Source: a virus. Taken from it: a stretch of 64,000 nucleotides of DNA. The stretch spans positions 192,001 through 256,000 of IMG/VR virus record IMGVR_UViG_3300045988_180880; one strand, 5' to 3'. The translations under genes were made by a program, and so were the position numbers. The notes under the pieces are model-generated. The model did no database searches. It was not told where the DNA came from and saw nothing but the letters and a program-made list of their open reading frames with translations. Within the stretch, counting starts at the first letter, position 1; each line of letters opens with the position of its first letter. Below, in pieces: positions 7,018-63,178 of the stretch.

Positions 7018-7036
7018 TTATACTATTATATGAGTG

Positions 7037-7090
7037 TTAACCTTAGAGAAAAATATGTAATGATCATGTGGATCTCTAAGGTTAATTTAT
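7037..7090 (+). terminator. hairpin terminator
   Basis: 13-bp perfect stem TTAACCTTAGAGA (7037-7049) / TCTCTAAGGTTAA (7073-7085), followed by TTTATT. Confidence 0.55.
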
Positions 7091-7115
7091 TAGAAAAATA
7101 TCAAAATTTAAAATT

Positions 7116-40950: not shown

Positions 40951-41367
40951 TCATGTATAAGGCTTTAAAGCTCTCTGAAAACGACTATACAAATAAATAT
41001 ATAGTTCATCAGCTAAATTAAATCTACTTAAGTCAGCTTCTATATTCTTTTGAATCTTAACTAAATAATAGATCAGATCAAGCCGAGTACGAGTTTCCTG
41101 AAGTTGAAATCTAAGTATATCTCTAAAAGTGAAGATACTTATATAATCGATCTTAATTCCATATAAATCTTTAAACTTATCAACAGTCATAGTTCCTCTT
41201 TTTATTCCAGAGTTATTAATAAAATCAACTACTTCTGGGATATAATAAGAAATTACAAAGTTTGATAAATTATCTATAGGAAGTTTCGAAGTAAATGCTA
41301 TAAATGTATGAAGAACTAAACCTCTTAGACTTATAGTATTATATATTACCTTATCTTCATAATCCAT
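40951..41367 (-). CDS. hypothetical protein
   Basis: ORF-track ORF, followed by a 10-bp hairpin (CTCCTTAAGC/GCTTAAGGAG, ~40886-40925). Confidence 0.55.
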   Translation of the reverse strand: MDYEDKVIYNTISLRGLVLHTFIAFTSKLPIDNLSNFVISYYIPEVVDFINNSGIKRGTMTVDKFKDLYGIKIDYISIFTFRDILRFQLQETRTRLDLIYYLVKIQKNIEADLSRFNLADELYIYLYSRFQRALKPYT

Positions 41368-41368
41368 C

Positions 41369-43270
41369 TTAACTTACTGTAGTATGTTTTGTTTTTATTA
41401 CTTTGGTTTTCACTATTTCATTCAAAAGTTTCGGCATTTCCTCTAAGTTATATCCGATATCTATATAAGTATCAAACATATCTTCAACACCGTAAACAGC
41501 ATCTATACTAATCTGAATTATTCCGAATCCAAGTTTTTCTGCTTCTTTTACTTTTGCGGCAGTATCTTTTATTGCTGGAATTCCTCCATATCCATTTGCA
41601 CAAGGGCTACCATCAGATATCACAAACATAATACAATTCTCTTTTGTGAACTTTCTAACTCTCTTTGCTACTTCTAGAATTGCATCTCCATCTCGATTTT
41701 GGGATTTTGCACAACTCTTAGATAATGAAAACTTAGGATTATAATGACTTCCTTCTCGATACACACTCAGATTTATATATCCGATCGAACCAATATCTGC
41801 AGTATGTCCATAAATATATAGATCAACTCCCAAACTTTTTCCGAAGGTTTCATTTAGAAGTATTGCAGCCTGTCTCGCTAGGATTTCCTTTTTTCCACCC
41901 ATAGATCCAGACTCATCAATAAGAACACATATAGTTGATTTATTGGTTCTAACATGTCCCTGTCTTAGGTAAACTTGTGGAACTCCTTGATATGCTTCTG
42001 CAAGTTTTGTCGTATCTAGAATTCCAGACCTACAACCTTGGATATTAAAATCATAGTTCTTATCTGTTCCTGTCAATATCTTTTTTAATCTAGGAACATA
42101 TTTTTGAACTGCTCTCACATCACATAAATAACTATTTCTATCCCCTTTTGGTTTTTCAAAGAATACCTTATCAGAATCACCACGTTCTACTGTTCCCTCT
42201 AAGATTTTCATTGTTAGGCTGTCCTTTAATGATAATAACCTAGATACTTTAGACTTATCTATCTTTCTTCCAGAATCTAAGTCAACTCCATACATTATAC
42301 TAGTTATAGATTCAGTATCATTAATTAAGAATAATATTTTTTTTAATTCCGCCGGATCTATATCAGATAATTTCTTCTCCTTAATTATCTTAAATATACT
42401 TTCAGAAACACTACAAATATCTTTAAGATTTTCTGGATATGGAGTTATCTTTTCTTGAACTTCTTTGTATACCTCAGAATACTCCTCAAGAATCTCCTCT
42501 TCTATTAATCCAGGAAATCTAAGTATCCCTATTAATGTTTTAAAGAAAAGAATCAACTTCCTCTCCCTCATCATATTAAGTCTTCCCTCTAGAGTCTTAG
42601 AATTATAACTTTTCGCACAATCAATAAAATCTTGAAATCCTGGTCGTTCTGTTAGTAATAAATCCTCAACTCTATTATCCTCAAGAAGATTTATGAAAAT
42701 TTTAATAATCTCTCCTTCTTCAGAAGTATATTTTCCACTTATAAAACTAAGAAAATTCAAATAAACTCTTAAGTAGGTATATCTTAAGTGTGCAGCCTCA
42801 TGAAGACCAAATCCACAGAAGGCATTTATTTTTGTTTCATTATCTTCGGTGGAGTCAAATATCTTAGAAGGGACTGCTATTCTTCTTTCGGAATTATCTC
42901 TTTTCTCTTCTGAAAAATAATCTGAATACGAACTACTTTCATCACTACTCTCATTTAAATTTACTTTAATCGGGAAAGGAAAATCCATTATAGTTATCAT
43001 ATCTTTTACAGAACTATAAGCCTTTTCAATTAACTTAGATAATTGTGCATCCTCTTCCTTTCCAACAGATGAATATGAATAATAACTTTCTCCATACCAA
43101 GAGCTTCTATTTATAGTTCTACTTAGCTCTCCAGAATTTCCGACAGATGATTTATAGGATTTTCTAAATATACTCCTACCCCATCTACCATCATCTTCGT
43201 CATCATAGTAATCATCATAATCCTTTCTTTTCCACCAAGGATAATATGAGGTTGAAAAATGTTTACTCAT
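41369..43270 (-). CDS. HExxH + vWA domain protein (CobT-like)
   Basis: GLHEAAHLRY in the N-terminal half; MIDAS-like VLIDESGSMGG and a vWA-like C-terminus. Adjacent to an AAA+ ATPase gene. Confidence 0.7.
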   Translation of the reverse strand: MSKHFSTSYYPWWKRKDYDDYYDDEDDGRWGRSIFRKSYKSSVGNSGELSRTINRSSWYGESYYSYSSVGKEEDAQLSKLIEKAYSSVKDMITIMDFPFPIKVNLNESSDESSSYSDYFSEEKRDNSERRIAVPSKIFDSTEDNETKINAFCGFGLHEAAHLRYTYLRVYLNFLSFISGKYTSEEGEIIKIFINLLEDNRVEDLLLTERPGFQDFIDCAKSYNSKTLEGRLNMMRERKLILFFKTLIGILRFPGLIEEEILEEYSEVYKEVQEKITPYPENLKDICSVSESIFKIIKEKKLSDIDPAELKKILFLINDTESITSIMYGVDLDSGRKIDKSKVSRLLSLKDSLTMKILEGTVERGDSDKVFFEKPKGDRNSYLCDVRAVQKYVPRLKKILTGTDKNYDFNIQGCRSGILDTTKLAEAYQGVPQVYLRQGHVRTNKSTICVLIDESGSMGGKKEILARQAAILLNETFGKSLGVDLYIYGHTADIGSIGYINLSVYREGSHYNPKFSLSKSCAKSQNRDGDAILEVAKRVRKFTKENCIMFVISDGSPCANGYGGIPAIKDTAAKVKEAEKLGFGIIQISIDAVYGVEDMFDTYIDIGYNLEEMPKLLNEIVKTKVIKTKHTTVS

Positions 43271-43276
43271 AGTCTA

Positions 43277-44431
43277 TTAATAAGATAATATTGTTTTATA
43301 TACTGTACTTCTTTCTCCTTCCAAATTAGTTCCTTCATAGATTGGAAGATATACCATTTCCATAGCACTTTTCACACTCCAACCATCTGATACTAACTCT
43401 GAGATCATTAGTGTTTCTCGAATTGATATAGAAGTTGAGATCTCCTGTTTCTTTGAGAGTGATCTAATATTATTCGCTATCTTCACAATTGATCTAGCTA
43501 CTTCTTCATCAATTCCCGTTCTATTAACCAAAACATTTACTTCTTCTGTATCTGGTATAATATTAAGTTCAAGAGGAAAAAATCGATTAAGAAGTGCTCG
43601 GTCTATCATATTAGTTCCAGTATATTCAGAACCTATATTAGCTGTTGCAATAAATGTTACCTCTGGATGAATTTTAATACTTCTAACTCCTTTCCCACAA
43701 GCTATTTCAACATTCAATTCCCGTCTATCATCTAAACAAGGAAACAATACATTATTAGCCCCAAGAGAAGAACGATTTAACTCATCTAAGAGAATTACAC
43801 ACGGTTCTTGAATTACTTTAGTGAACTTAGCATAATCAAATATACTTTTTCCATCTTCTAAGCGATGAACTCCAAGTAAATTTGAAATAGGATCAATCAT
43901 AGAACCCATATCAAACACATGAAGAGGTATACCCATTCTAGAACAAACTTCTTTTACACAACTTGTCTTTCCAGAACCTGTAGGCCCTATAATCATCGTA
44001 TTAACATGTTTTTTTATATTTCTCACTAAGATTCTCCAATTATCAGGGGTCATATAAAATCCATCCTTTGTAGAACTTGGAGAAATTAGTGATGCATCTT
44101 TAAGAATTGTTTCGAGAATCGTATCTTTCTTTAAGGGATCTACGAAATCAATTCCAGTCAGAGTTTTATATTCTTTTTTAGCTTCTTCATCTTTATATGT
44201 TAATCTTTGAAATCCCTTTTGTGTATAAAACTTTCCACCTGAAGAACTAAGATTAAGAAAAGTTGAGATAAATATAGTACCTTCTGAATAAACATCTCTT
44301 ATCTTCTTAGGGCATTGTACATAAAGACTTGTAGATACATTAGAACCATCCTTCAATTTTTGTCCAGGGAGTGCTTTTACTTTCAAATTTCCTTTAACTA
44401 ATACTGTCTCTAAAAAATAATACTTACTCAT
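43277..44431 (-). CDS. AAA+ ATPase (CobS/MoxR, AAA_5-like)
   Basis: Walker A GPTGSGKTS, Walker B ILLDELNRS, FIATANIG, LLNRF. Confidence 0.8.
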   Translation of the reverse strand: MSKYYFLETVLVKGNLKVKALPGQKLKDGSNVSTSLYVQCPKKIRDVYSEGTIFISTFLNLSSSGGKFYTQKGFQRLTYKDEEAKKEYKTLTGIDFVDPLKKDTILETILKDASLISPSSTKDGFYMTPDNWRILVRNIKKHVNTMIIGPTGSGKTSCVKEVCSRMGIPLHVFDMGSMIDPISNLLGVHRLEDGKSIFDYAKFTKVIQEPCVILLDELNRSSLGANNVLFPCLDDRRELNVEIACGKGVRSIKIHPEVTFIATANIGSEYTGTNMIDRALLNRFFPLELNIIPDTEEVNVLVNRTGIDEEVARSIVKIANNIRSLSKKQEISTSISIRETLMISELVSDGWSVKSAMEMVYLPIYEGTNLEGERSTVYKTILSY

Positions 44432-45099: not shown

Positions 45100-47124
45100 A
45101 TGAATAATAAAATGTATAGGGAAAAAGTAATAGTTCCTAGAGGTATTAGATTTATTTCAGAATGGAGTGAATTTAATTTTAGCAAATTTCCAGGGAAGTG
45201 TATAATAAATAAGCAATTACCTGGTTGTGGATTTACTGAATACTGTATTAGAAGTGGTGAAAATATTATTCTATGTAGTCCAAGAAAAATGTTACTTAAG
45301 AATAAATGGAGTCAACATAAGAATGAAGTTTACTTAGTAGTAAATGAAATGGATAAAGATTCTAATATTGATAAAGATTTATCCAAAATCGATAAGAGCG
45401 TAGTAATAGATAATTTAGTTAAGGAAGAAATATCTACTAATTCTGAAATCTATAAAAGATTATATCATGAAATAGAAGAATATTGTATGAATAGACCTTA
45501 TGGATTAGGTAAGAAGATATTAGTTACTTACGATTCTTATAGGATAGTGAAGGATATCTTAGAAAAGTTAGGATGGTTTAATAGATTTATTACAGTTATA
45601 GATGAATTTCAGAGTATCTTACATGATGCTAGATTCAAAAGTGATACTGAATTAAAATTTATGGAATACCTTAAACAGTCCCCCACTGCATATTTTGTAT
45701 CTGCTACTCCAATGATGGATGAGTACCTAGAAATGTTAGATGAATTTAAAGATTTACCTTATTATGAATTAGATTGGGGAAGTGAAGACACAACAAGAAT
45801 TATTAAGCCTGATTTAGATGTATATTTAATGAGAACGGTTGGTGAAAAGGCGTCTGAAATTATTCAAAAATATCTTAATAATGATTTTGAAAGTGTAGTA
45901 GTTCTTAGAAATGGTATTCCAACTAGGATAATATCAGATGAGGCTGTATTTTATGTAAACAGTGTGAATCATATTACATCTATTATAAAAAAGAATAACC
46001 TTACCCCTGAACAATGTAATATATTATGTTCAGATACAGAAGATAATAAAAAGAAAATTCAGAGAAGACTTGGAAAATCTTTTACAATAGGAGAAGTACC
46101 GTTGAAAGGAGTTAAACCTAAGATGTTTACATTCTGTACTAGGACTGTATATCTTGGGGCTGATTTTTATAGTTTATGTGCAAGGAGTTTCATATTCTCA
46201 GATTCTAATATAGACAGTTTAGCTGTTGATATTAGTGAAGATCTTCCCCAAATACTAGGTCGTCAAAGACTTTTCGAAAATCCTTGGAGTAATAGTGCAA
46301 TATTCTATTATAGATCTACTGCTAACTATAGAGAGATGAAGGAAGAAGATTTTAAAAATATAATAGAATCTAAGAAAAAATCTACTGAAAATCTATTATT
46401 AGCATACAATACTACCTTAGACACTGTTAAGTATGATTTAGCAAAGAATTATCAAAAAGTTGCTAAATCTTATAACTACAAAGATGATTATGTAGCAGTA
46501 AATAAAATTCAAACACGGGATGGAAATATAATACTTAAACCTGTTCTTAACAATTTAGTATTAGTAAATGAGATTAGGGCATTTAAAATACAACAAATAG
46601 ATTATAAAGATAGATTTAGTGTATTTTCCACTATTCATAATACTTTATCTCCAGATGATATAGTTAATCAGGAGGTATCAGAATTTCTTAGAGTATATAC
46701 TAAATTAAGTACTATACATGATAAACTAAAAATGCTGTGTGAGTATGGTTTATCTAGTGATGCAATTGATATAGTTCTTGGACAGATAGCTGATTCTGAT
46801 GAAATTAAGTCTTATTATACTACATTGGGCTCTAGTAAGCTTAAATCACTATCTTATAATAGTGCTAAAATAAAAAATCATCTAGGGGTAGTAACATTTA
46901 GTCAAGAACTTCTAGAATCTAGTATTTATTCGGAATTTAAAGTAGGGGATAAAATAACACTATCTGATATAAAATCTAGACTTGAGGTGTTATATAAGTC
47001 CATTAATTACGACAAAGTAGCCAAAGCAAAGGATTTAGAAAACTATTTTGAAGTTAAGAATTCTAGTATTTATGAAAATGGAAAGAAAGTAAAATGTTAT
47101 ATTATTATTAAAAAGAAAGAATAA
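45100..47124 (+). CDS. SF2 helicase-like protein, paralogue B (atypical Walker A)
   Basis: Same motif set as 821..2899 (LPGCGFTEY, VIDEFQ, VSATP, QILGRQR), with long stretches of identity. Confidence 0.7.
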   Translation: MNNKMYREKVIVPRGIRFISEWSEFNFSKFPGKCIINKQLPGCGFTEYCIRSGENIILCSPRKMLLKNKWSQHKNEVYLVVNEMDKDSNIDKDLSKIDKSVVIDNLVKEEISTNSEIYKRLYHEIEEYCMNRPYGLGKKILVTYDSYRIVKDILEKLGWFNRFITVIDEFQSILHDARFKSDTELKFMEYLKQSPTAYFVSATPMMDEYLEMLDEFKDLPYYELDWGSEDTTRIIKPDLDVYLMRTVGEKASEIIQKYLNNDFESVVVLRNGIPTRIISDEAVFYVNSVNHITSIIKKNNLTPEQCNILCSDTEDNKKKIQRRLGKSFTIGEVPLKGVKPKMFTFCTRTVYLGADFYSLCARSFIFSDSNIDSLAVDISEDLPQILGRQRLFENPWSNSAIFYYRSTANYREMKEEDFKNIIESKKKSTENLLLAYNTTLDTVKYDLAKNYQKVAKSYNYKDDYVAVNKIQTRDGNIILKPVLNNLVLVNEIRAFKIQQIDYKDRFSVFSTIHNTLSPDDIVNQEVSEFLRVYTKLSTIHDKLKMLCEYGLSSDAIDIVLGQIADSDEIKSYYTTLGSSKLKSLSYNSAKIKNHLGVVTFSQELLESSIYSEFKVGDKITLSDIKSRLEVLYKSINYDKVAKAKDLENYFEVKNSSIYENGKKVKCYIIIKKKE

Positions 47125-55977: not shown

Positions 55978-56654
55978 AATAATTCTTTTATAGTTTGTTC
56001 ATTAATATCTAGAATAAAACATTTTCTACAATCAAGACATGCAAAGGTAGTTCCAAAATACTCCTTTGATAATTGAGTATGACCGAATATCTGATGAACT
56101 CCGGAGTACTGATTTACAAACTCTCGTACATCTGACCATACACAAGATCCATATTGACAGTATCCTCCCCTAATTGTAGATATATCCCAAAGATGATCAT
56201 AGGCTAAATCTTGGTTTCGAAGTAATGCACTTAGGACTACACAATCACATTCCTTTACCATCCAATCTCTAATTACTCCTGCATGAGAGAATAAATATTT
56301 ATCAGTTTTATATAATAACTGGAAAAGATCTTTATTATCTTTAAAAATCTCTTCTATTCTCTTAGCATTTCTATGGTCATATCTACTACAAGGAGTTATA
56401 TGTATTGATAAATCTGAGTAGTGACAATCATGATTCCCGTAGAGAAGAATAACTTTATCATTATAATTTTTCTTAAACTCTATTATTTCTTCGAACTCCT
56501 TAATAGCATCTTCAGTTGTTATTCCCTCGGCCGGATAAGGATCTAAATAATCCCCTAAGAATACAATTTTATCTACTTCATCTACTTTTTCTTTAGCTAA
56601 TCTCCAAAATGTTCGGCCGTGAACATCTGGAACTATTATTACTTTATTTATCAT
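55974..56654 (-). CDS. metallophosphoesterase (Ser/Thr phosphatase-like)
   Basis: PDVHGR, FLGDYLDPY, YGNHD, FSHAG, GHT in canonical order. Confidence 0.8.
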   Translation of the reverse strand: MINKVIIVPDVHGRTFWRLAKEKVDEVDKIVFLGDYLDPYPAEGITTEDAIKEFEEIIEFKKNYNDKVILLYGNHDCHYSDLSIHITPCSRYDHRNAKRIEEIFKDNKDLFQLLYKTDKYLFSHAGVIRDWMVKECDCVVLSALLRNQDLAYDHLWDISTIRGGYCQYGSCVWSDVREFVNQYSGVHQIFGHTQLSKEYFGTTFACLDCRKCFILDINEQTIKELL

Positions 56655-57358
56655 AACTTATTAATTAAACTCCAAATCCAATATTTTCCATTCTCAGTCC
56701 ACTTCTTTTTATTAGATACATGCTTATTTCCGTGTTTATCAATTACTACTACGGAGACTAATTTAGTATAACCTAATTTATCATAAGGACTGGATAAGAA
56801 CCAACCTTTAGCCCCACGTCTTCTATAAATAAACTTATTATCCTCTAATTTCTTAAGAAGGGTTTTTGCACTATACCCTAAATTCATATCCTTACAGATC
56901 TGTTCAGTAGAGTATAGATTTTTAGAATAAGTTAGAACCTCATCACAATAATTAGCTTGAGGTAGAAGAGAGTTATATCTATCTCTTTCTTCCTGAAGAG
57001 CAGTAGTAAATCCTGTTCTTAAGAGCTCATCGATTTTCATATTACACCAGATAGCAAATCCAGGATCTAACCATCTAGCAAATTCTAAAGCTACCCATCT
57101 ATGCATCCATGTTCCCTGTCTAGTACCATCTGAATAATTACCTTTAACTGTTAGTACAGGAGTGATACCTGAAAATCTGGTATCACTTTTAAATGCTTCT
57201 AGATAAGATTTAGTACTAGGAAGTGAAAACCAGTCGTTGGGTCTTTTTCTAAATAGTTTTGCCATTTCTGTAGCATTAATCATAGTATCAAATCCATCTG
57301 ATTGAGTAAGTTGAATAAATGCTCCATTAAATTCTAATTCACTAATAATTGTTTTCAT
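56651..57358 (-). CDS. KilA-N domain protein (Bro/antirepressor-like)
   Basis: INATEMAKLF...GTWMHRWVALEFARWLDPGFAIWCN matches the KilA-N core pattern. Confidence 0.65.
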   Translation of the reverse strand: MKTIISELEFNGAFIQLTQSDGFDTMINATEMAKLFRKRPNDWFSLPSTKSYLEAFKSDTRFSGITPVLTVKGNYSDGTRQGTWMHRWVALEFARWLDPGFAIWCNMKIDELLRTGFTTALQEERDRYNSLLPQANYCDEVLTYSKNLYSTEQICKDMNLGYSAKTLLKKLEDNKFIYRRRGAKGWFLSSPYDKLGYTKLVSVVVIDKHGNKHVSNKKKWTENGKYWIWSLINKL

Positions 57359-57389: not shown

Positions 57390-57455
57390 AATCGAATTAA
57401 CAGGACAGAAAAATAAGACCCTAAGGAATTCTCACTCCCTAGGATCTTTTTTTAT

Positions 57456-57947
57456 TTAATCTAATCTTTCATCATTATATTTACTCTTTATTAGATTACC
57501 ATTAATATTATGCCATATAGTTTGATTAGAAGATCCTCTAAATCTAAGTTTTCTATCTTTTAATTCATCTATATATCTTCCATCAACTATATAATCACAC
57601 AAATTAATAACTTTCATTTGTTCTTCAGTTAATTCAGAAATATAAAATCCAGTCCATAACCAAATCTCTTTTTCTGGCCAAGTTTCCTTTATTTCTTTTA
57701 ATAATTCACTAAGTTCTGTAGCTTGAAGTAAAGGTTCTCCACCTAAAATAGAAACTCTCTTTACTCCTTCTATTAATTCAAAAAATTCTTTTTTTTCTTT
57801 CTCAGTAAATTCTTTTCCTCCATCCAAAGGCCAAGCTACTTGATTGAAACAATTCTTACAATGGAATAAACATCCTTGTAAAAATAATGAAACTCCAATG
57901 TAAGGTCCATTAGATATATCTATTTTTCTAATAGTTGCGTATCTCAT
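57456..57947 (-). CDS. nrdG: anaerobic ribonucleotide reductase activating protein (radical SAM)
   Basis: CxxxCxxC cluster GCLFHCKNCFN, GGEPL motif, ~160 aa, directly downstream of nrdD. Confidence 0.85.
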   Translation of the reverse strand: MRYATIRKIDISNGPYIGVSLFLQGCLFHCKNCFNQVAWPLDGGKEFTEKEKKEFFELIEGVKRVSILGGEPLLQATELSELLKEIKETWPEKEIWLWTGFYISELTEEQMKVINLCDYIVDGRYIDELKDRKLRFRGSSNQTIWHNINGNLIKSKYNDERLD

Positions 57948-57961
57948 AGTTTTCAGGGATT

Positions 57962-58044
57962 TTATAATTCATGATCATCTAGATGAGTGTATCTATCTCG
58001 TATCTCGGCTGTACGCCCTTGATTCCAAAAATTGGAACCAATAT
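57962..58044 (-). CDS. nrdD: nrdD exon 5 (glycyl-radical tail)
   Basis: Completes RRTCG|YIGSNFWNQGRTAEIRDRYTHLDDHEL*. Not in the ORF track because it has no Met. Confidence 0.75.
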
Positions 58045-58204
58045 CAATAATTACTATATTATTTATATAGTTTAAGACTATATCTTTTAATAAAATTTTT
58101 ATTAATTATTATACTTAGTCGTTGAACAAGTTTATTTTTACTTGATGCCGATTTATATTAATATCTTTCCGGCAATTTTAATAATTTAACGTGAGCTAAA
58201 TTTA
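58045..58204 (-). ncRNA. group I intron 4 (ORF-less, ~160 nt)
   Basis: On the minus strand: P-like AAATTGCCGGAAAG (58165-58178), Q-like AATCGGCATCAAG (58141-58153), R-like GTTCAACGACTAAG (58114-58127), S-like AAAGATATAGTCTTAA (58072-58087). 5' exon ends in U; intron ends in G. Confidence 0.65.
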
Positions 58205-59103
58205 ACCCACACGTACGTCTAGATACATGAAGTTTGTGTTGATCTTCACAGCCACATTGAGGACACCTCCAAGACAATTTATTATCCTCATCTATAATTT
58301 CTATCTCACCATCATATCCACAGTTAGAACAATAATCTGATTTTGTATTTAACTCTGCATAAGAAATATTATCATAGATGAACTTTATAACTTCTAAAAC
58401 TGCTTCGATGTTAGTACTGATATCTGCAGACTCTATGTAAGATATCATACCACCAGAACTATATGGTTGAAGTTCTGCCTCAAATTTTAACTTATCAAGA
58501 GGATTAATTTCTTCTTTTACATTAATATGATAACTGTTAGTAATATAAGATTCATCAGTTATGTTCGGTATAACTCCGAATCTATTCTTAAGACACTTTG
58601 CAAATTTATAAGTTGTACTTTCAATTGGAGATCCGTATACACTATATCCAAGACCATTCTCCTCAGATTTCCACTTATTACAAGCATCATTTAATCTTTG
58701 CATAATTTGTTTTGCAAGATCGATATGTTTTGTATGAGATTCCCCAGTTAATGCCATAACGCACTCATATAAACCAGCATAACCTAGAGAAATTGTACTA
58801 TACCCACCAAATAATAATGGATCAATCACTTCTCCTGGTTTTAATCTTGCAAAAGCTCCATGTTGCCATAATATAGGAGCTACATCTGATTTAATTCCAA
58901 GTAAACGTTTATGTCTAATTTGTAATGCTTTATGACATAATTCCAAACGTTCATCTAGAATTTCCCAGAACTTATCAATATCTCCTTCTGCAGATAATCC
59001 TGCATCAGGAAGTGATACTGTTACAACACCTTGATTTAGACGACCATAGAATTTATAATTTCCATTTTCATCTTTCCAAGGTGATAAGAAACTGCGACAT
59101 CCC
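58205..59103 (-). CDS. nrdD: nrdD exon 4
   Basis: (M)GCRSFLSPWKDENGNYKFYGR...ELCHKAL...CPQCG...RRTCG. Extends the track ORF 58158..58946 upstream, in frame. Confidence 0.8.
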
Positions 59104-59885
59104 CAAAGTTAATAATTATTAACTTTTAGACTATATCATATTCTTATTGCTATTACCACAAATAAGAACCCTACCATTTCAGAATTTATTATTAATAATA
59201 AATTCTTACGATACTCATTTCCATATTAGTATTTCTCTAATATTTATTTTCTCTAGTCGTTAGGCTTTTATATTAAATATAATAAATATCTTTTATTTTA
59301 TACTTACGAAAACCTTTATTTTTCTTTTGTAACCAGTACTTAACAGTTACTCTAGAAATTCCTAGTAATTTTGATAAGTCTTCTTTAAAATTATAAATTT
59401 CTTCAAGTCCATTATCATAAATTATCTTAAAAGGTTTATAATTTTTATGTTTAGATCCACCAACTTTATAAGAATGACGTTCGTTTTGTTTTCTAGTACA
59501 CCACTCTAAGTTATTTACATTACTATTTAATTTATTTCCATCGATATGATTAACTTCAAGATAATTATTTGGATTAGGTATGAATAATAAAGCTACTAAT
59601 CTATGTCTAAAGAATCTTTCCTTCTTTATAGAATTATTTTTATTATATAGATAAATTCTTGGATAACCTGCATTATTAGTATCTCCAATGATTAGTTTCT
59701 TTGTTATTTTATTTCTAACTTCTCCAAGTTCATTTATTTCATAATAATTTTCCCAATTAGGTATATCTTTCCACATAAAAATATTTTATATTTAATAATT
59801 TAGCACGGTAAGTTAGCAATTAATGCCTTCTCCGTTTAAGTAGGTTTTTCGAGTAACATCACTGTTACAAGGCACAGGATACTCT
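59104..59885 (-). ncRNA. group I intron 3 carrying an HNH homing endonuclease ORF
   Basis: R-like CCTAACGACTAGAG (59251-59264) and S-like ATGATATAGTCTAAAA (59124-59139). Splits the conserved CFPS|MGCRS. Confidence 0.65.
59273..59776 (-). CDS. HNH homing endonuclease (NUMOD4 + HNH_3-like)
   Basis: NYYEINELGEVRN (NUMOD4-like); EVNHIDGNKLNSNVNNLEWCTRKQNERHS (HNH). Lies inside the intron. Confidence 0.75.
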   Translation of the reverse strand: MWKDIPNWENYYEINELGEVRNKITKKLIIGDTNNAGYPRIYLYNKNNSIKKERFFRHRLVALLFIPNPNNYLEVNHIDGNKLNSNVNNLEWCTRKQNERHSYKVGGSKHKNYKPFKIIYDNGLEEIYNFKEDLSKLLGISRVTVKYWLQKKNKGFRKYKIKDIYYI

Positions 59886-60193
59886 ATGCTCGGGAAACAG
59901 TTTCCTTCTTTAAGTTCCTTCATTTTCTTTTCAGAAATATAATCAGGAACTAATCGTTTAGCTGAACACTTAGCAGCGAGTTTAGTAAGATACCAATATT
60001 TACTATTTTCATGTATATTATCTTCCTCAAGAGCATATATCAATTTAGGAAATGCAGGAGTTACAAATACTCCATCTTCATTAGGCATTCCTTGGATACG
60101 TTGTTCTAGGAATTCTTGAATTAACATGGCTAATTCTTCTTTATATTCTGAAGTTTCGCCTAGATACATAAATACTGTTAAAAATGGGGACTG
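59886..60193 (-). CDS. nrdD: nrdD exon 3
   Basis: QSPFLTVFMYLGE...KELKEGNCFPS. The track ORF 59813..60196 runs on into the intron. Confidence 0.8.
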
Positions 60194-60486
60194 CATTTCC
60201 CCCGAATTAGACTATATCATCAACCACTATTAAATGGTTGGAGAGCGCTTCGGAATAAGGAATTTCGCCTTAAACCTACTCCTTTCGGATAGTCGTTTGA
60301 CCTTCTAGAAACTTATTCATTTTCTAGCTTGGCACAGGATTAGATTTTAATCTTTCCCTGTTAGCAAAATTTTAAACTATCATTTCCTATAGTTCCGTAT
60401 TATTTACGTAAATTTTACACCTAAGATTTCTTAGTTCACTCTCTACATTGAAAAATATTACTACTTTCCCGGGCCAGTAAAATTCG
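60194..60486 (-). ncRNA. group I intron 2 (ORF-less, ~293 nt)
   Basis: P/Q-like TTGCTAACAGGGAAAG...AATCCTGTGCC; R-like TCAAACGACTATCC (60287-60300); S-like GATGATATAGTCTAAT (60206-60221). Splits TNG|QSPF. Confidence 0.7.
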
Positions 60487-60681
60487 ACCATTTGTGTTTG
60501 TCATACTATTAATTTGATAATTAAAAGTTTGAACTGAGTCTTTAACTTCTTTTTTCAAATCAATAGTTGCTAATTTCTCGCTAAGTTCTTCATCTAATCC
60601 AGCATCTTTATATTTTTTCAGATAACCATTATAACTATCTCTTACAAAAGGTGCTAGATGTGTTAATGTTATTGTACATCC
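60487..60681 (-). CDS. nrdD: nrdD exon 2
   Basis: GCTITLTHLAPFVRDSY...QTFNYQINSMTNTNG. Both flanks of the track ORF 60436..60708 are intron sequence. Confidence 0.75.
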
Positions 60682-61862
60682 CAAATATATGAAATTTGTA
60701 TTTTTCATATAACTAGACTATTTCTTATTGAGTTTATGTTCTCAATCAACCCGTTTCAATAATTAGGAATTTCACCAAATTATTTACGTCAAAATGACTA
60801 GTCGTTACAATTAATAAATAAATTTAAATGTATGATCTGAACAATTAGTTTCTCCATTTATGTATCTACTTATTTGAGTTTCAGATTTACCCAAAAATTT
60901 CGCTAAGGCAACTATTGTTTTAAATTCATACTTATCATCTAGAATTATTTTTCTCCATTTACCTCTTTTAGTAAATGCTTTGGATTTTGCTTTCCCTTTT
61001 TTATAAGCTAATTTATTATTATCTCCCATAGACACCCACATAAGATTTGATGCTTTATTATTAGTTACATCATTATCAATATGCTCTATAGTATTTTTTT
61101 CCTCACTATGGCCATCCAGAAAAGCAAAACCAACTAACCTAGACACTTGAAGTCCTTTTTCCTTAATTTTAATATAAACTCTGCCAGTTTTCGAATTTAT
61201 ATTTAAAGATAATAGTACATACTTATCATATGTTTTTATATATCTTTTAACACGTCCCATATTTGAAATATAATAACTGGAGTATCCCAAAATCTCTTTC
61301 CATTCTTCATCAGGTAATTCTTCCCAATCATAATTTAATGAGGATTTTTCTACTAACTGATTTTTTCTTTCTTGAGCATTTATTTTCTGTCTATTAATAT
61401 AATCAATTTTGTGCTCATTTAATTCAGGAACTTTCTTTATTATATTACTCAAATATTCTGAGGTTACTTTTAATTCATTAGCTATTTCTGAAATTGAAAT
61501 ATCATTATCAAGTTTACTAATAATTAGATTTTTATTTTTATTAGCAAATTTTTGATTAGATGGTGTTAAGTAAGATACATTACCTTTTTCTAATTTCCAG
61601 TCTTCGTTGATAGCTTTTATTAAAGTTTTCCTATCTACTTCTAGTAATCTAGATATATAACTCTTAGATCTTCCTTCGTTACAATACAATTTAATAATTG
61701 TATTTTTTAATAATTCAATTTTTTCTCTTTCAGTCATTTCCAAACTTTTTTATTTATTAATCACGAGATCAGACTTTTCCATTCCTTCCTCGTTAGCCTT
61801 GATAAGCAAGACACCCACTTTTGTGGTTAGGGTTGTTTTAATACGGCAGATATATTTTATAA
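60682..61862 (-). ncRNA. group I intron 1 carrying an HNH homing endonuclease ORF
   Basis: R-like GTAACGACTAGTC (60796-60808) and S-like AAGAAATAGTCTAG (60713-60726). Splits SSSQYG|GCT. Confidence 0.65.
60811..61743 (-). CDS. HNH homing endonuclease with HTH modules
   Basis: YYISNMGRVKR (NUMOD4-like); IEHIDNDVTNNKASNLMWVSMGDNN (HNH); N- and C-terminal HTH-like segments (ISRLLEVDRKT, LAKFLGKSETQISRYING). Confidence 0.75.
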   Translation of the reverse strand: MEMTEREKIELLKNTIIKLYCNEGRSKSYISRLLEVDRKTLIKAINEDWKLEKGNVSYLTPSNQKFANKNKNLIISKLDNDISISEIANELKVTSEYLSNIIKKVPELNEHKIDYINRQKINAQERKNQLVEKSSLNYDWEELPDEEWKEILGYSSYYISNMGRVKRYIKTYDKYVLLSLNINSKTGRVYIKIKEKGLQVSRLVGFAFLDGHSEEKNTIEHIDNDVTNNKASNLMWVSMGDNNKLAYKKGKAKSKAFTKRGKWRKIILDDKYEFKTIVALAKFLGKSETQISRYINGETNCSDHTFKFIY

Positions 61863-62546
61863 ACCGTATTGACTGCTTGATACTGCAGTAATTATCTGCG
61901 TTGCAATTGTAGTAGCTGTAATTAATTTATGAGGTTTAAATATTTTTGTCTTATTTATACATGTTCCATTTTGAAGCATGTCCTCAAGATTAATCAAACA
62001 GCAATTATTCATCGCAAGTTGGCCTATATAGTCAAGATCGTGTATGTGAATCAGGCCTTCATCATGAGCTTGGATAATTTCAGGAGGGAATATTTTTCGT
62101 CTAGCCATATCTATACTAACAATTCCAGCCATATAGTCTCTCTGAACTGTTAAGAGCATAGAATCTTTATTAGAATTTTCAGACTTCCAATATTCACTAT
62201 CTCCTGCTAATAATTCATTTATTTGTTCATCGATAGTATTAGATTGTCGTTGAAATTCTCTAACACTTCGATATCCTTCATAAGCTTTTGCAGTTAACTT
62301 ATGTCCTTTCTTTATTAACTTGTCATATACTAAATTTTCAATCTCATCAATAGTACATGAACCTTTTTCTTTTAATTCTTCTTCAATTTCTTTAGAGATA
62401 TTAAAAGCTACTTTTGGACTTTTAATACCACTAGATTTCATTGCATTAAGAATTGCTTTTTCTATTTTTTCAGAATTAAATTTTTCAGATTTACCATTCC
62501 TTTTAGCAACTAGTAAATCTGATACTGTATTTACATCTTCACTCAT
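61863..62546 (-). CDS. nrdD: nrdD exon 1 (ATP-cone + N-terminal part of class III ribonucleotide reductase)
   Basis: VAKRNGKSEKFNSEKIEKAILNA is ATP-cone-like; the exon ends AVSSSQYG. Confidence 0.8.
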
Positions 62547-62569
62547 ATGTTTTTATTTTTCTTTATTTG

Positions 62570-63178
62570 TTATTTCTTACTAGGATCAAATTCAAATCCC
62601 AAGTCATTTACATATTTTTCTGCATCTTTAATATTAATAACTTCATCAATTTTATTATACTTTTGTGTAAATTCAACATATGCATCTTGATGTTCCATAT
62701 ATTCTTGAACCCCTCCTGGAAATTCTTTTGCTCGGGTAGGTTCTCTAAGAATAACATCTCTAACAAAATCAAAATCTTTCTGAACTAATAATATTCTCCT
62801 TGGTGTATAGTACGAATTTTGCTCACATAAGATATCTTCTTCATGAACTACATCCTTAATCCATTTCGAATTTTCACCGATTTCTCTATTATTCTTGTAG
62901 TAATAATAAAGCATATCGGATACTCCCCTTTCTACTAAGAGGTTATTCACTCCAGGAGGCCAGTTATTTTTTATAGCATTCCTCAAGTTACAAAGATGAA
63001 GAATAGCATAATTTCGATCATCTTGCTGTGTTCCTAAGATATTTTCCCAACGTTTCCAAGGTTTAATATCAGACCACATAACATTATACAGTCCAGGGCA
63101 TCTTGTTAATATTGATTCTATGGTTGTTGCTTTAAATGTACCAGAACATCCATAATACATAGTTATAAATCTAAACAT
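62570..63178 (-). CDS. hypothetical protein, possible P-loop kinase-like (dNMP/deoxynucleoside kinase?)
   Basis: Degenerate P-loop YGCSGTFKAT and ERGVSD-like segment; the functional assignment is weak. Confidence 0.5.
   Translation of the reverse strand: MFRFITMYYGCSGTFKATTIESILTRCPGLYNVMWSDIKPWKRWENILGTQQDDRNYAILHLCNLRNAIKNNWPPGVNNLLVERGVSDMLYYYYKNNREIGENSKWIKDVVHEEDILCEQNSYYTPRRILLVQKDFDFVRDVILREPTRAKEFPGGVQEYMEHQDAYVEFTQKYNKIDEVINIKDAEKYVNDLGFEFDPSKK

What the first reader, a model, noticed from the sequence alone, without database searches (positions are those of the whole stretch)
57962..62546. nrdD interrupted by four group I introns (five exons)
- The four minus-strand track ORFs (61857.., 60436.., 59813.., 58158..) are consecutive pieces of one class III ribonucleotide reductase.
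- Joining them at SSSQYG|GCT, TNG|QSPF, CFPS|MGCRS and RRTCG|YIGS restores an uninterrupted 722-codon frame. The exon lengths 684+195+308+899+83 sum to 2169 nt, which is divisible by 3.
- Every 5' exon ends in U and every intervening sequence ends in G.
- Each intervening sequence carries the classical group I R (..AACGACTA..) and S (..GATATAGTCT..) elements in the correct order.
- Introns 1 and 3 host HNH endonuclease ORFs. Introns 2 and 4 have no ORF.
- One intron in phage nrdD is classical (T4 sunY/nrdD). Four in one gene, all at highly conserved peptide motifs, is an unusually heavy load.
Basis: partly seen in the sequence, partly recalled or inferred. Interest (0 to 1): 0.7.

Follow-up and report, generated by a model that had tools for sequence, protein, structure and literature searches.

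The report
Four group I introns split nrdD
A gut jumbo-phage gene for anaerobic ribonucleotide reductase really is cut into five exons by four self-splicing-type (group I) introns, but this gene in this phage group has already been published as intron-fragmented, so it confirms a known case.

Summary
Five minus-strand exons (684+195+308+899+83 nt) join into a 722-aa NrdD that aligns without gaps across all four junctions to solved NrdD structures.

Closely related phage contigs carry every intermediate state:
- none of the four insertions;
- only introns 2+4;
- only 3+4;
- 1+2+4;
- all four.
The breakpoints fall exactly at the predicted splice sites.

All four insertions have a U·G pair at the 5' splice site, a terminal G and a P3/P7 pseudoknot core with compensatory changes in homologues. 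A covariance model built only from the T4 td/nrdD/nrdB introns ranks them as its top four hits in the 64-kb window. Rfam's Intron_gpI misses them, but it also misses or under-scores the T4 introns, so that failure says nothing.

Introns 1 and 3 carry intact NUMOD4/HNH endonuclease genes. Intron 1 is flanked by a synonymous co-conversion tract.

A heavy intron load is normal here. A 2026 paper on "Jug" jumbo gut phages reports about 18 group I introns per genome and nrdD fragmented in 95 of 104 genomes. It shows RNA-read support for splicing, except at what appears to be intron 1.

Verdict: real, interpretation supported, essentially already known.

The parts
61863..62546 (-). nrdD exon 1 (684 nt; ATP-cone and N-terminal part of NrdD; ends ...CAATACGGT)
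   Evidence: Intron-free alleles L002, L033, L068 and L074 continue straight into exon 2 at this base.
60682..61862 (-). Intron 1 (1181 nt), a group I intron with an HNH gene looped out of a 13-bp stem. Helices: P1 61869-61863/61847-61841 (U.G at the splice site); P3 61835-61830/60752-60747; two hairpins (61826-61815 and 61812-61796); GCUAAC-CGAG...CUCG (61792-61764); ORF stem 61761-61749/60822-60810; P7 60803-60799/60720-60716; P7.1; P7.2; P8 60746-60727; P9 60710-60687; terminal G at 60682.
   Evidence: Helix coordinates are and the fold. Three diverged homologues sit at the same nrdD site and have different but still complementary helices. The T4-derived model scores it at E 5.3e-6.
60811..61743 (-). 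Intron 1 ORF (310 aa from TTG, 308 aa from the ATG at 61737): NUMOD4 + HNH + HTH homing-endonuclease-like protein
   Evidence: Pfam: NUMOD4 30 bits (above its cutoff), HNH_3 21.3 bits (below its cutoff of 24.8), HTH_3. It is 28% identical to the intron 3 ORF, E 1e-10. Public assemblies call it as a 308-aa gene.
60487..60681 (-). nrdD exon 2 (195 nt)
60194..60486 (-). Intron 2 (293 nt, no ORF). Helices: P1 60489-60485/60476-60472; P3 60443-60438/60246-60241; hairpin X 60434-60421; stem Y 60416-60410/60372-60366; P4 and P5 60365-60332; P6/P6a 60333-60300; P7 60294-60290/60214-60210; P7.1; P7.2; P8 60239-60222. There is no P9 hairpin. Terminal G at 60194.
   Evidence: Coordinates are. The T4-derived model scores it at E 3.1e-8. 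The motif scan returned 70 stretches (53 distinct sequences, 45 read), and P3 covaries among those read. L289 and L296 carry ORF-bearing relatives at the same nrdD site. L074 lacks the intron and equals the predicted spliced sequence 60/60.
59886..60193 (-). nrdD exon 3 (308 nt; ends inside the Met codon, AT|G)
59104..59885 (-). Intron 3 (782 nt), T4 td/sunY-like, with the ORF in the P6a loop. Helices: P1 59889-59886/59875-59872; P2 59868-59853; P3 59844-59840/59174-59170; P4 and P5 59835-59805; P6a 59797-59788/59280-59271; P7 59258-59254/59133-59129; P7.1; P7.2 59206-59181; P8 59168-59141; P9 59125-59106; terminal G at 59104.
   Evidence: The layout was compared element by element with T4 td and sunY. 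L363 is a homologue at the same site with compensatory helices. L068 lacks the intron and equals the predicted spliced sequence 60/60. The T4-derived model gives only E 0.096, but this is still the 4th best hit in the window.
59273..59776 (-). Intron 3 ORF (167 aa): NUMOD4 + HNH_3 homing endonuclease
   Evidence: Pfam HNH_3 37.8 bits and NUMOD4 33.6 bits, both above their cutoffs.
58205..59103 (-). nrdD exon 4 (899 nt; starts G|GGATGTCGC = (M)GCRS; ends ...CGTACGTGTGGG+T, one base after the Gly codon of RRTCG)
58045..58204 (-). Intron 4 (160 nt, no ORF), a compact group I intron without P2, P7.1 or P7.2. In intron numbering: P1 exon -6..-1 with 9-14 (U-1.G9); P3 19-26/94-101; P4 31-35/55-59; P5 41-43/48-50; P6 61-65/74-78; P7 85-89/125-129; P8 102-107/111-116; P9 135-140/146-151; terminal G160 = window 58045.
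   Evidence: A model built from intron 4 alone finds 81 further matches (52 distinct sequences including intron 4 itself). In that alignment 94.8% of cells are paired against 35-44% when partners are slid, and 34 of 38 pairs show changes on both sides. P3 was tested separately. The T4-derived model gives E 0.0072. L002 and L033 lack the intron exactly at this point.
57962..58044 (-). nrdD exon 5 (83 nt; (Y)IGSNFWNQGRTAEIRDRYTHLDDHEL*), the C-terminal tail after the glycyl-radical glycine
   Evidence: Gene callers annotated no gene here in any of the 8 public contigs examined.
57456..57947 (-). nrdG (163 aa), the activating radical-SAM enzyme, directly downstream of nrdD
   Evidence: Pfam Fer4_12 at 8e-40 and Radical_SAM.

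Best explanation
nrdD of this gut jumbo phage is interrupted by four independent group I introns. The phage is very probably a "Jug" phage. Each intron is inserted at a highly conserved peptide motif of the enzyme.

Proposed mechanism:
- After transcription each intron folds into the group I core (P1 with a U.G pair at the 5' splice site, P4-P6, and the P3-P8/P7 pseudoknot).
- It binds free guanosine in P7, is attacked at the 5' splice site, and is released after its terminal G. This ligates the exons into one 2169-nt reading frame for a normal class III ribonucleotide reductase.
- Introns 1 and 3 also encode NUMOD4/HNH endonucleases. These cut intron-less alleles in co-infecting relatives, so repair copies the intron and some flanking exon into them (homing).
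- Introns 2 and 4 are ORF-less passengers. Intron 2 looks like an ORF-less derivative of introns that carry an ORF at the same site in other phages.

Shown here: exact exon/intron boundaries, the presence/absence polymorphism, conserved and covarying RNA structure, relatedness to the T4 introns, intact endonuclease genes, and a co-conversion tract.

Inferred: actual self-splicing, GTP dependence, and endonuclease activity and specificity.
For: 1. Reading frame. The joined frame is a full-length NrdD, gap-free across all junctions against PDB 9d3x and 1h78 and complete against Pfam NRDD.

2. Natural alleles.
- L002 (89% nt identity, 362,675-bp contig) and L033 lack all four insertions.
- L068 (99.8%) lacks introns 1 and 3.
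- L074 (98.9%) lacks introns 1 and 2.
- L440 and L441 lack only intron 3.
- L086 (377,817-bp contig), L208 and six ENA contigs of 262-384 kb have all four.
- For introns 2 and 3 the intron-less allele equals the predicted ligated sequence 60/60.

3. Core anatomy. P1 with U.G, a terminal G, P3, P4-P6, P7 (GACUA/UAGUC, as in T4 td, nrdB and nrdD) and P8 are placed in all four introns. P9 is placed in introns 1, 3 and 4.

4. Model built from proven introns. A covariance model made only from the P7-to-P7' domain of T4 td, nrdD and nrdB was searched over both strands of the whole window. Its four best hits are the four introns, at E 3.1e-8, 5.3e-6, 0.0072 and 0.096. The next hit is at E 1.8.

5. 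Covariation.
- Intron 4 family: 52 distinct sequences, 94.8% of cells paired against 35-44% with slid partners, 34 of 38 pairs with changes on both sides.
- Intron 4 P3: best helix 5.69 bp against 4.46+-0.13 bp for mismatched partners.
- Intron 1: three homologues at the same site (ORF identity 48-61%) have different but complementary P1, P3, hairpins, ORF stem, P7.2, P8 and P9.
- Intron 2: P3 changes in step in family members (GAGAGU/GCUCUC, CACGGU/GCCGUG, GGUUGU/GCAACC and others).
- Intron 3: site homologue L363.

6. Homing signature. In alleles without intron 1 that are 99% identical overall, 8 of 9 (L068) or 8 of 19 (L074) CDS differences lie in the 15 nt just 5' of the intron 1 site. All are synonymous, and they create the 7-bp P1.

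7. Selection. The exact exon 1 product of the intron-1-bearing allele is listed in 954 blocks of the public assembly collection, and the reading frames were intact in every copy checked.

8. Literature. In Jug phages, nrdD is fragmented in 95 of 104 genomes, and metatranscriptome reads map precisely across intron flanks for terL and nrdD (PMC12880540).
Against: - Rfam Intron_gpI gives no hit on any of the four, even at E<=10. This is explained by the control on T4.
- No RNA data were available here.
- The published nrdD example reports no splicing reads between its 230-aa and 91-aa fragments. By size these match the ORFs flanking intron 1 (229 and 90 aa).
- Introns 1 and 2 have two extra hairpins between P3 and P4. 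I could not assign these to a standard group I element.
- Intron 2 has only a 5-bp P1 (3 bp with the exon) and no P9 hairpin.
- The E-values for introns 3 and 4 with the T4-derived model are weak (0.096 and 0.0072), and the model's calibration is rough.
- The helix tables use strands picked by eye, so their 100% pairing is by construction. Only the differences between homologues carry information.
- The alignment counted was fitted to the model's structure, so its pair counts lean towards that structure.
Confidence: 0.92

Rival explanations
1. Introns 2-4 splice, but intron 1 is splicing-impaired or dependent on a protein cofactor. In that case nrdD in intron-1-bearing phages would be poorly expressed or on its way to becoming a pseudogene. 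The HNH-carrying element would persist purely by homing.
For: - The published Jug nrdD figure notes no splicing reads between the 230-aa and 91-aa fragments, which by size is this junction.
- The region of intron 1 between P3 and P7 is four successive hairpins rather than the textbook nested P4-P5 plus P6.
- The 5' half of intron 1 was found only in near-identical copies by a DNA pattern search.
Against: - Three diverged homologues at the same site keep every helix through compensatory changes, including the exon-IGS pairing.
- The same "P3 - two hairpins - GCUAAC - P4" layout is shared with the large intron 2 family.
- The intron-1-bearing allele is very widespread, and its exons are intact with almost no amino-acid change.
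- The T4-derived model scores its 3' domain at E 5.3e-6.
- The paper mapped reads with an unspliced aligner (Bowtie2), which may handle a 1181-nt gap poorly (my inference).
Confidence: 0.1
2. The pieces are not spliced at the RNA level. nrdD would be a genuinely fragmented gene whose separate polypeptides assemble, or are joined at the protein level in an intein-like manner.
For: - Each fragment is an ORF that gene callers annotate separately.
- The exon 2 ORF has an in-frame ATG 27 nt upstream, inside intron 1.
- The Jug paper mentions Intein_splicing domains in some nrdD insertions of other genomes.
Against: - The intervening sequences contain stop codons in the exon frame and have no intein domains.
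- Exon 3 ends inside a codon, and exon 5 (27 aa) has no start codon.
- The breaks fall at the active-site Cys loop and next to the radical glycine, where separate chains are implausible.
- All four carry group I cores.
Confidence: 0.02
3. Assembly artefact or chimeric contig: the insertions come from mis-joined reads of different phages.
For: The source is metagenomic, and introns are repeated elements that can confuse assemblers.
Against: The same four-intron arrangement is found at 99-99.8% identity in independent IMG/VR and ENA assemblies from different samples, on contigs of 262-384 kb. The insertion points are base-precise and restore the frame.
Confidence: 0.01

Closest known systems
Fragmented nrdD of "Jug" jumbo gut phages (Sci Adv 2026, PMC12880540; preprint PMC12363816)
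   Same: - Very probably the same gene in the same phage group.
- Contigs 99% identical to the window are 262-394 kb, against 360-402 kb for Jug genomes. Window GC is 31%, against about 30%.
- ORF fragments of 229 and 90 aa match the paper's "230- and 91-aa fragments".
- Related contigs with an intact nrdD exist, as in the paper's group Beta.
- The paper reports the same combination of group I introns and HNH genes, with RNA reads supporting splicing.
   Different: - The paper speaks of four fragments. Here there are five exons, because the 83-nt last exon behind the 160-nt intron 4 is never called as a gene.
- As far as the text I could read shows, the paper gives no base-level junctions, no secondary structures, no intron presence/absence series and no co-conversion tract. 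It found no splicing reads at what appears to be intron 1.
- I could not compare sequences directly, because no Jug genome or supplementary table was on hand.
Phage T4 group I introns in td, nrdB and nrdD/sunY (subgroup IA2)
   Same: - Same R and S elements and the same P7 (AACGACUA ... AUAGUC).
- Same order P7 - P7.1 - P7.2 - GAAAY - P3' - P8 - J8/7 - P7' in introns 1-3.
- Intron 3 shares the GC/UAAAU/P6a layout of td and sunY, and like td it has its ORF in the P6a loop and a GUGA-capped P2.
- Introns sit in nucleotide-metabolism genes and carry homing endonucleases.
- A model built from the T4 introns finds all four.
   Different: - None of the four is at the T4 nrdD site (AYEY^EVN), which is 12 codons upstream of intron 2.
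- T4 has one intron per gene.
- The T4 td and nrdD introns encode GIY-YIG enzymes (I-TevI, I-TevII), whereas both ORFs here are NUMOD4/HNH, like I-TevIII of nrdB.
- Introns 1 and 2 have two extra hairpins between P3 and P4.
- Intron 4 lacks P2, P7.1 and P7.2.
Multi-intron phage genes: Staphylococcus phage Twort orf142 (three group I introns) and crAss-like phage genes with multiple introns and inteins (the latter cited in PMC12880540; Twort from my own knowledge)
   Same: Several self-splicing group I introns sit within one essential phage gene, some with and some without endonuclease ORFs.
   Different: Different genes and hosts. Four introns in nrdD exceeds Twort's three, but is within what is described for gut phages.

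Membership tests
Group I intron | 5' exon ends in U, which forms a U.G wobble with the internal guide sequence in P1 | tested here: met
   The pairing exists in all four sequences:
- Intron 1: AUACGGU/GCCGUAU.
- Intron 2: GGU|CG/UGGCC.
- Intron 3: GCAU/GUGC.
- Intron 4: GUGGGU/GCUCAC.
In each the last exon U pairs with G. In intron 1 homologue L354 the exon and guide sequence change together (CUACGGU/GCCGUAG).
Group I intron | Intron ends in G (omega G) | tested here: met
   All four end in G. The U...G choice of junction reproduces the natural intron-less alleles 60/60 for introns 2 and 3.
Group I intron | Conserved core: P3/P7 pseudoknot, P4-P6 domain, P8, J8/7, supported by covariation | tested here: met
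   Helices are placed in all four. Covariation comes from the intron 4 family, intron 1 and 3 site homologues and intron 2 family P3. Caveats: introns 1 and 2 have two extra hairpins between P3 and P4, and intron 2 has no P9 hairpin.
Group I intron | Match to a covariance model of the family | tested here: inconclusive
   Rfam RF00028 gives no hit at the gathering score or at E<=10. The same model gives 40.3 bits (below the gathering score of 50) on T4 td and nothing on T4 nrdB. A model built from the three T4 introns ranks the four introns as hits 1-4 at E 3e-8 to 0.096. The subtype models used in PMC12880540 were not available.
Group I intron | Guanosine-dependent self-splicing yielding ligated exons | not testable with these tools
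   The only evidence is indirect. The literature reports RNA reads across intron flanks in Jug terL and nrdD, but none at the 230/91-aa junction.
Subgroup IA2 (T4 / Twort type) | Extra helices P7.1 and P7.2 between P7 and P3' | tested here: met
   This is met for introns 1, 2 and 3. It is NOT met for intron 4, where P3' follows P7 after 3-4 nt. Intron 4 works like a group I intron but is not a typical IA2 member.
HNH homing endonuclease (NUMOD4 / HNH_3 type, as in I-TevIII / I-HmuI) | HNH catalytic motif and DNA-binding modules, encoded inside the intron, with evidence of mobility | tested here: met
   - Intron 3 ORF: HNH_3 37.8 bits and NUMOD4 33.6 bits, both above their cutoffs.
- Intron 1 ORF: NUMOD4 is above its cutoff. 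HNH_3 scores 21.3 bits, below its cutoff of 24.8, but the sequence EHIDND..NN..SNL is present.
- Mobility: presence/absence among alleles that are 99% identical, and a co-conversion tract at intron 1.
- Cleavage activity was not testable.
Class III (anaerobic) ribonucleotide reductase NrdD | Full NRDD fold, ATP-cone, C-terminal glycyl-radical motif RxCGY, Zn-ribbon cysteines, adjacent nrdG activase | tested here: met
   - Pfam NRDD 1-562/562, ATP-cone and Gly_radical.
- RRTCGYIG aligns to T4 RRTC(A)YLG in the PDB entry and to RTCGYLG of 9d3x.
- The CxxC...CxxC cysteines are present.
- nrdG lies 15 nt downstream.
Jug (jumbo gut) phage clade | 360-402 kb genome, about 30% GC, human or animal gut origin, fragmented nrdD in the non-Beta groups | tested here: inconclusive
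   Contigs 99% identical to the window are 377,817 bp (IMG/VR) and 376-394 kb (ENA gut assemblies). Window GC is 31.2%. Fragment sizes match the paper's Fig. 2D. No Jug genome sequence was available for a direct comparison.

The most novel reading that the evidence does not exclude
Two structural points may not yet have been described.

(a) Intron 4 (160 nt; no P2, P7.1 or P7.2) belongs to an abundant family of ultra-compact group I introns in huge gut phages. Some members are only about 131-142 nt and appear to lack P8 or P9. If they self-splice, they would be smaller than the roughly 200-nt Azoarcus tRNA-Ile intron, which I recall (own knowledge, not checked here) as one of the smallest known.

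(b) Introns 1 and 2 share a conserved, covarying layout with two extra hairpins inserted between P3 and the P4 strand ("P3 - X - Y - GCUAAC - P4"). This is where textbook group I introns have only a 3-5 nt J3/4 linker.

Either point could define a new structural variant of the ribozyme.
Probability: 0.3. Interest if true: 0.55.

Novelty: already known. Interest (0 to 1): 0.3.

Why it matters
For genome annotation, the case shows how an essential phage enzyme can be hidden as four or five "hypothetical" fragments. The 27-aa last exon, which follows the radical-bearing glycine, is missed by gene callers in every public copy examined.

For intron biology, the series of natural alleles (0, 2, 3 or 4 introns at 99% background identity, plus a synonymous co-conversion tract) is a clean natural record of homing and loss in a very abundant human-gut phage.

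[quoted passage not shown] The compact 160-nt intron and its even smaller relatives could be of practical interest as minimal ribozymes.

Tried and rejected
- Rfam cmscan at the gathering score over the whole window, and at E<=10 over 57400-63000, gave no group I hit and only noise from snoRNA and sRNA models. I rejected this as evidence against introns after the T4 control.
- megablast of the locus against GenBank phages gave only a 59-nt exon match.
- A single-sequence model of intron 4 (R1) did not find the other three introns or the T4 introns. It gave only a weak E 0.55 hit on the P4-P5 part of T4 nrdB. It was useful only for collecting the intron 4 family.
- Counting P3 on the model-fitted alignment at intron 4's own register gave no signal (45% paired; the +2 slide gave 66%). 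The unstructured columns were not in register. I replaced this with a register-free test.
- A pattern search for the 5' half of intron 1 (TAACCACAAAAGTGGGTG) returned only identical copies and one GC-rich chance match, L283. Homologues were then found through the ORF instead.
- Removing the compact-intron hits from L277 at the model's boundaries did not lengthen the ORFs. The boundaries are too approximate, so I make no claim about exon structure there.
- The fifth AACGACTA at 40980 (+) has no S element downstream and is a chance match.
- Alternatives considered and dropped: group II introns (160-293 nt is far too short), inteins (in-frame stops, no intein domains), and translational bypass (the gaps are far too long).

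Full report
**1. The observation**

On the minus strand, five segments join into one open frame of 2169 nt, which is 722 codons plus a stop:

| exon | window coordinates | length |
|---|---|---|
| 1 | 62546-61863 | 684 nt |
| 2 | 60681-60487 | 195 nt |
| 3 | 60193-59886 | 308 nt |
| 4 | 59103-58205 | 899 nt |
| 5 | 58044-57962 | 83 nt |

- The four intervening sequences are 1181, 293, 782 and 160 nt. Each 5' exon ends in T and each intervening sequence ends in G.
- The product matches Pfam NRDD end to end (1-562/562, E 2e-176), and also ATP-cone and Gly_radical.
- It aligns without a gap across all four junctions to the solved NrdD structures 9d3x and T4 1h78.
- nrdG follows 15 nt downstream.

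Where the introns sit:
- Intron 4 lies one base after the Gly codon of RRTCG|YIGS. This aligns with RRTC(A)YLG of the T4 structure. From my own knowledge, that entry carries the G580A substitution at the radical glycine.
- Intron 3 lies one codon before the Cys of MGCRSF. From my own knowledge, this is the active-site thiyl Cys290 of T4.
- The T4 nrdD (sunY) intron sits at AYEY^EVN, 12 codons upstream of intron 2. None of the four sites is the classical one.

**2. Natural alleles prove the boundaries**

A scan of IMG/VR with the spliced protein, followed by blastn, gave a full series:

| locus or contig | identity to window | introns present |
|---|---|---|
| L002 (362,675-bp contig) | 89% nt | none |
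| L033 (254 kb) | 70-85% nt (87% protein) | none |
| L068 | 99.8% | 2 and 4 |
| L074 | 98.9% | 3 and 4 |
| L086 (377,817-bp contig) | 99.0% | all four |
| L208 | 99.8% | all four |

- The alignments to L002 and L033 break at the predicted exon ends.
- For introns 2 and 3, the intron-less allele is identical (60/60) to the predicted ligated junction.
- A look-up of the exact 229-aa exon 1 product found it in 954 blocks of public assemblies, on gut-metagenome contigs up to 394 kb.
- Among the eight contigs read, six had all four introns and two lacked only intron 3.
- No gene caller annotated exon 5 in any of them.

**3. Are they group I introns?**

*Rfam.* RF00028 gave nothing, even at E<=10. 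As a control I ran the same search on phage T4. The td intron reached only 40.3 bits (the gathering score is 50), and the nrdB intron was not reported at all. The Rfam failure is therefore uninformative for this kind of phage intron.

*A model from proven introns.* I built a covariance model from the P7-P7.1-P7.2-P3'-P8-P7' domain of the three experimentally established T4 introns only. I searched the whole 64-kb window on both strands. The four best hits are the four intervening sequences:

| intron | E-value |
|---|---|
| 2 | 3.1e-8 |
| 1 | 5.3e-6 |
| 4 | 0.0072 |
| 3 | 0.096 |
| next hit in the window | 1.8 |

*Anatomy by inspection.* This was checked by script.
- All four have a P1 in which the last exon U pairs with G.
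- All four have P3, a P4-P6 region, P7 (GACUA/UAGUC, the same as in the T4 introns), P8, an A-rich J8/7 and a terminal G.
- Introns 1-3 have P7.1 and P7.2 followed by GAAAY/GAAGC-P3', as in T4 td, nrdB and sunY.
- Intron 3 is a close structural copy of td and sunY: the GC/UAAAU/P6a layout, and like td its ORF in the P6a loop and a GUGA-capped P2.

**4. Comparative support for each intron**

*Intron 4.*
- A model made from intron 4 alone retrieved 81 further matches at E<=0.01 (52 distinct sequences including intron 4 itself) from loci collected with two core patterns.
- On that alignment 94.8% of cells are paired, against 35-44% when partners are slid by 1-3 columns.
- 34 of 38 pairs have changes on both sides. 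The alignment is fitted to the model, so it leans towards the structure.
- P3, which the model cannot hold, failed at intron 4's own register. A register-free test gave a mean best helix of 5.69 bp, against 4.46+-0.13 bp for mismatched partners.

*Intron 1.*
- Searching with its HNH protein found three diverged relatives (ORF identity 61, 52 and 48%) at the same ..QYG|G.. site of nrdD in other phages.
- At homologous positions P3, two hairpins, the 13-15-bp stem that loops out the ORF, P7.2, P8 and P9 all have different sequences that remain complementary.
- In L354 the exon and guide sequence change together (strands chosen by eye).

*Intron 2.*
- The motif scan returned 70 stretches (53 distinct sequences, 45 read).
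- They show P3 changing in step. They also show a conserved "P3 - GAAC - hairpin - GGUGU - hairpin - GCUAAC - P4" layout.
- L289 and L296 carry ORF-bearing relatives at the same TNG|QSPF site.

*Intron 3.*
- L363 (ORF identity 57%) sits at the same ..PCM|GCRSF site, with compensatory P2, P5, P6a, P7.1, P7.2, P8 and P9.

**5. Mobility**

- Both intron ORFs are intact NUMOD4/HNH proteins and are distant paralogues of each other (28% identity, E 1e-10).
- In alleles without intron 1 that are 99% identical overall, 8 of the 9 (L068) or 8 of the 19 (L074) CDS differences fall in the 15 nt immediately 5' of the intron 1 site. All are synonymous: TCAAGCAGTCAATACGGT against TCATCTTCACAATATGGA.
- This is what a homing co-conversion tract looks like. 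It also supplies the U at -1 and the 7-bp P1.
- Introns 2 and 3 are gained or lost without any flank change.

**6. Identity of the phage and prior knowledge**

A full-text search found PMC12880540 (Sci Adv 2026; preprint PMC12363816) on "Jug" jumbo gut phages. [quoted passage not shown]

The paper reports:
- 2513 group I introns in 136 of 139 genomes, mean length about 206 nt.
- nrdD fragmented in 95 of 104 genomes, and intact only in group Beta.
- HNH genes in the insertions.
- Metatranscriptome reads that map precisely across intron flanks.

The window has 31.2% GC, is 99% identical to a 377,817-bp contig, and has ORFs of 229 and 90 aa flanking intron 1. I therefore think it is a non-Beta Jug phage and that the gene is the published example or a near-identical one. 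I could not compare sequences directly.

**7. What remains open**

- *Intron 1 is the least certain.* The literature saw no spliced reads there. Its P3-to-P7 region is four successive hairpins rather than the textbook nest. Against a defect stand the compensatory changes in three homologues, the shared layout with the intron 2 family, and the very wide distribution of the intron-1-bearing allele with intact exons. The paper's read mapper, Bowtie2, is not splice-aware (my inference about the consequence).
- *The two extra hairpins* between P3 and P4 in introns 1 and 2 do not fit any standard element I know of.
- *Intron 2* has no P9 hairpin. Its 3' tail GGGGA pairs with the first codons of the 3' exon (UCCCC), and the same pairing is seen in L289 and L296.
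- *Intron 4* lacks P2, P7.1 and P7.2, so it is not a typical IA2 intron. Some relatives are only about 131-142 nt and seem to lack P8 or P9.

**8. Verdict**

The claim of an exceptional intron load is not supported in the context of this lineage. The finding is essentially already published at the level of phage group and gene.

The refinements added here are:
- five exons rather than four fragments;
- base-level junctions;
- secondary structures for all four introns;
- the series of natural intron-bearing and intron-free alleles;
- the co-conversion tract at intron 1;
- the control showing that Rfam is blind to these introns.

Noticed in passing
window 56651-57358 (-): The KilA-N + ANT (antirepressor-like) ORF next to nrdG is a variable cassette. 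It is absent from L002, L068, L086 and L440/L441. It is present in L074. In different ENA contigs it lies either before or after the neighbouring Metallophos gene.
   Followed up: partly
window 60438-60366 and 61830-61796 (-); loci: Introns 1 and 2, and many relatives of intron 2, have two conserved, covarying hairpins between the 5' strand of P3 and a conserved GCUAAC that leads into P4. Standard group I introns have only a short J3/4 linker there. I could not place this layout in the usual nomenclature.
   Followed up: partly
window 60209-60183 (-); L289, L296: The 3' tail of intron 2 (GGGGA) can pair with the start of the 3' exon (UCCCC, the codons for S-P of QSPF), forming a hairpin across the 3' splice site. 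The same pairing exists in the two ORF-bearing relatives at this site. Intron 2 itself has lost the P9 hairpin that they have.
   Followed up: no
L224:3954-4102, L241:3509-3647, L233:3524-3662, L277:7839-7980: Some members of the intron 4 family are only about 131-142 nt long and appear to lack P8 or P9 altogether. If functional, they would be unusually small group I ribozymes.
   Followed up: partly
L277 (291,943-bp contig), L224, L142 (377,817-bp contig): Hits to the compact-intron model cluster densely: 9 in 11.8 kb of L277, four of them within 860 nt, and 7-8 each in L224 and L142. The surrounding ORFs in L277 look like RNA polymerase subunit fragments. Exon structure was not resolved.
   Followed up: partly
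window 57962-58044 (-) and L438-L445: Exon 5 of nrdD (27 aa, the tail after the radical glycine) is not called as a gene in any of the eight public contigs examined, so automated annotation truncates NrdD.
   Followed up: yes
window 821-2899 (+) and 45100-47124 (+): Two large ORFs (692 and 674 aa) with no Pfam hit are 61% identical paralogues lying 42 kb apart.
   Followed up: partly
window 5497-8861 (+) and 41369-44431 (-): There are two separate gene pairs of a MoxR-type AAA+ ATPase with a VWA-domain protein (CoxE / CobT-like) in the same window.
   Followed up: no
nrdD CDS nt 1084-1098 (window about 59989-59975, exon 3), L074 compared with the window: Six substitutions cluster within 15 nt of exon 3 in L074, about 90 nt upstream of the intron 3 site. 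This may be a second recombination patch.
   Followed up: no
window 60682-60708 (-): The ORF that covers exon 2 starts at an ATG 27 nt inside the 3' end of intron 1, in frame with exon 2. This is probably coincidental.
   Followed up: no
window 40980-40987 (+): This is the fifth AACGACTA in the window. No S element or other core element follows it, so it is a chance match.
   Followed up: yes
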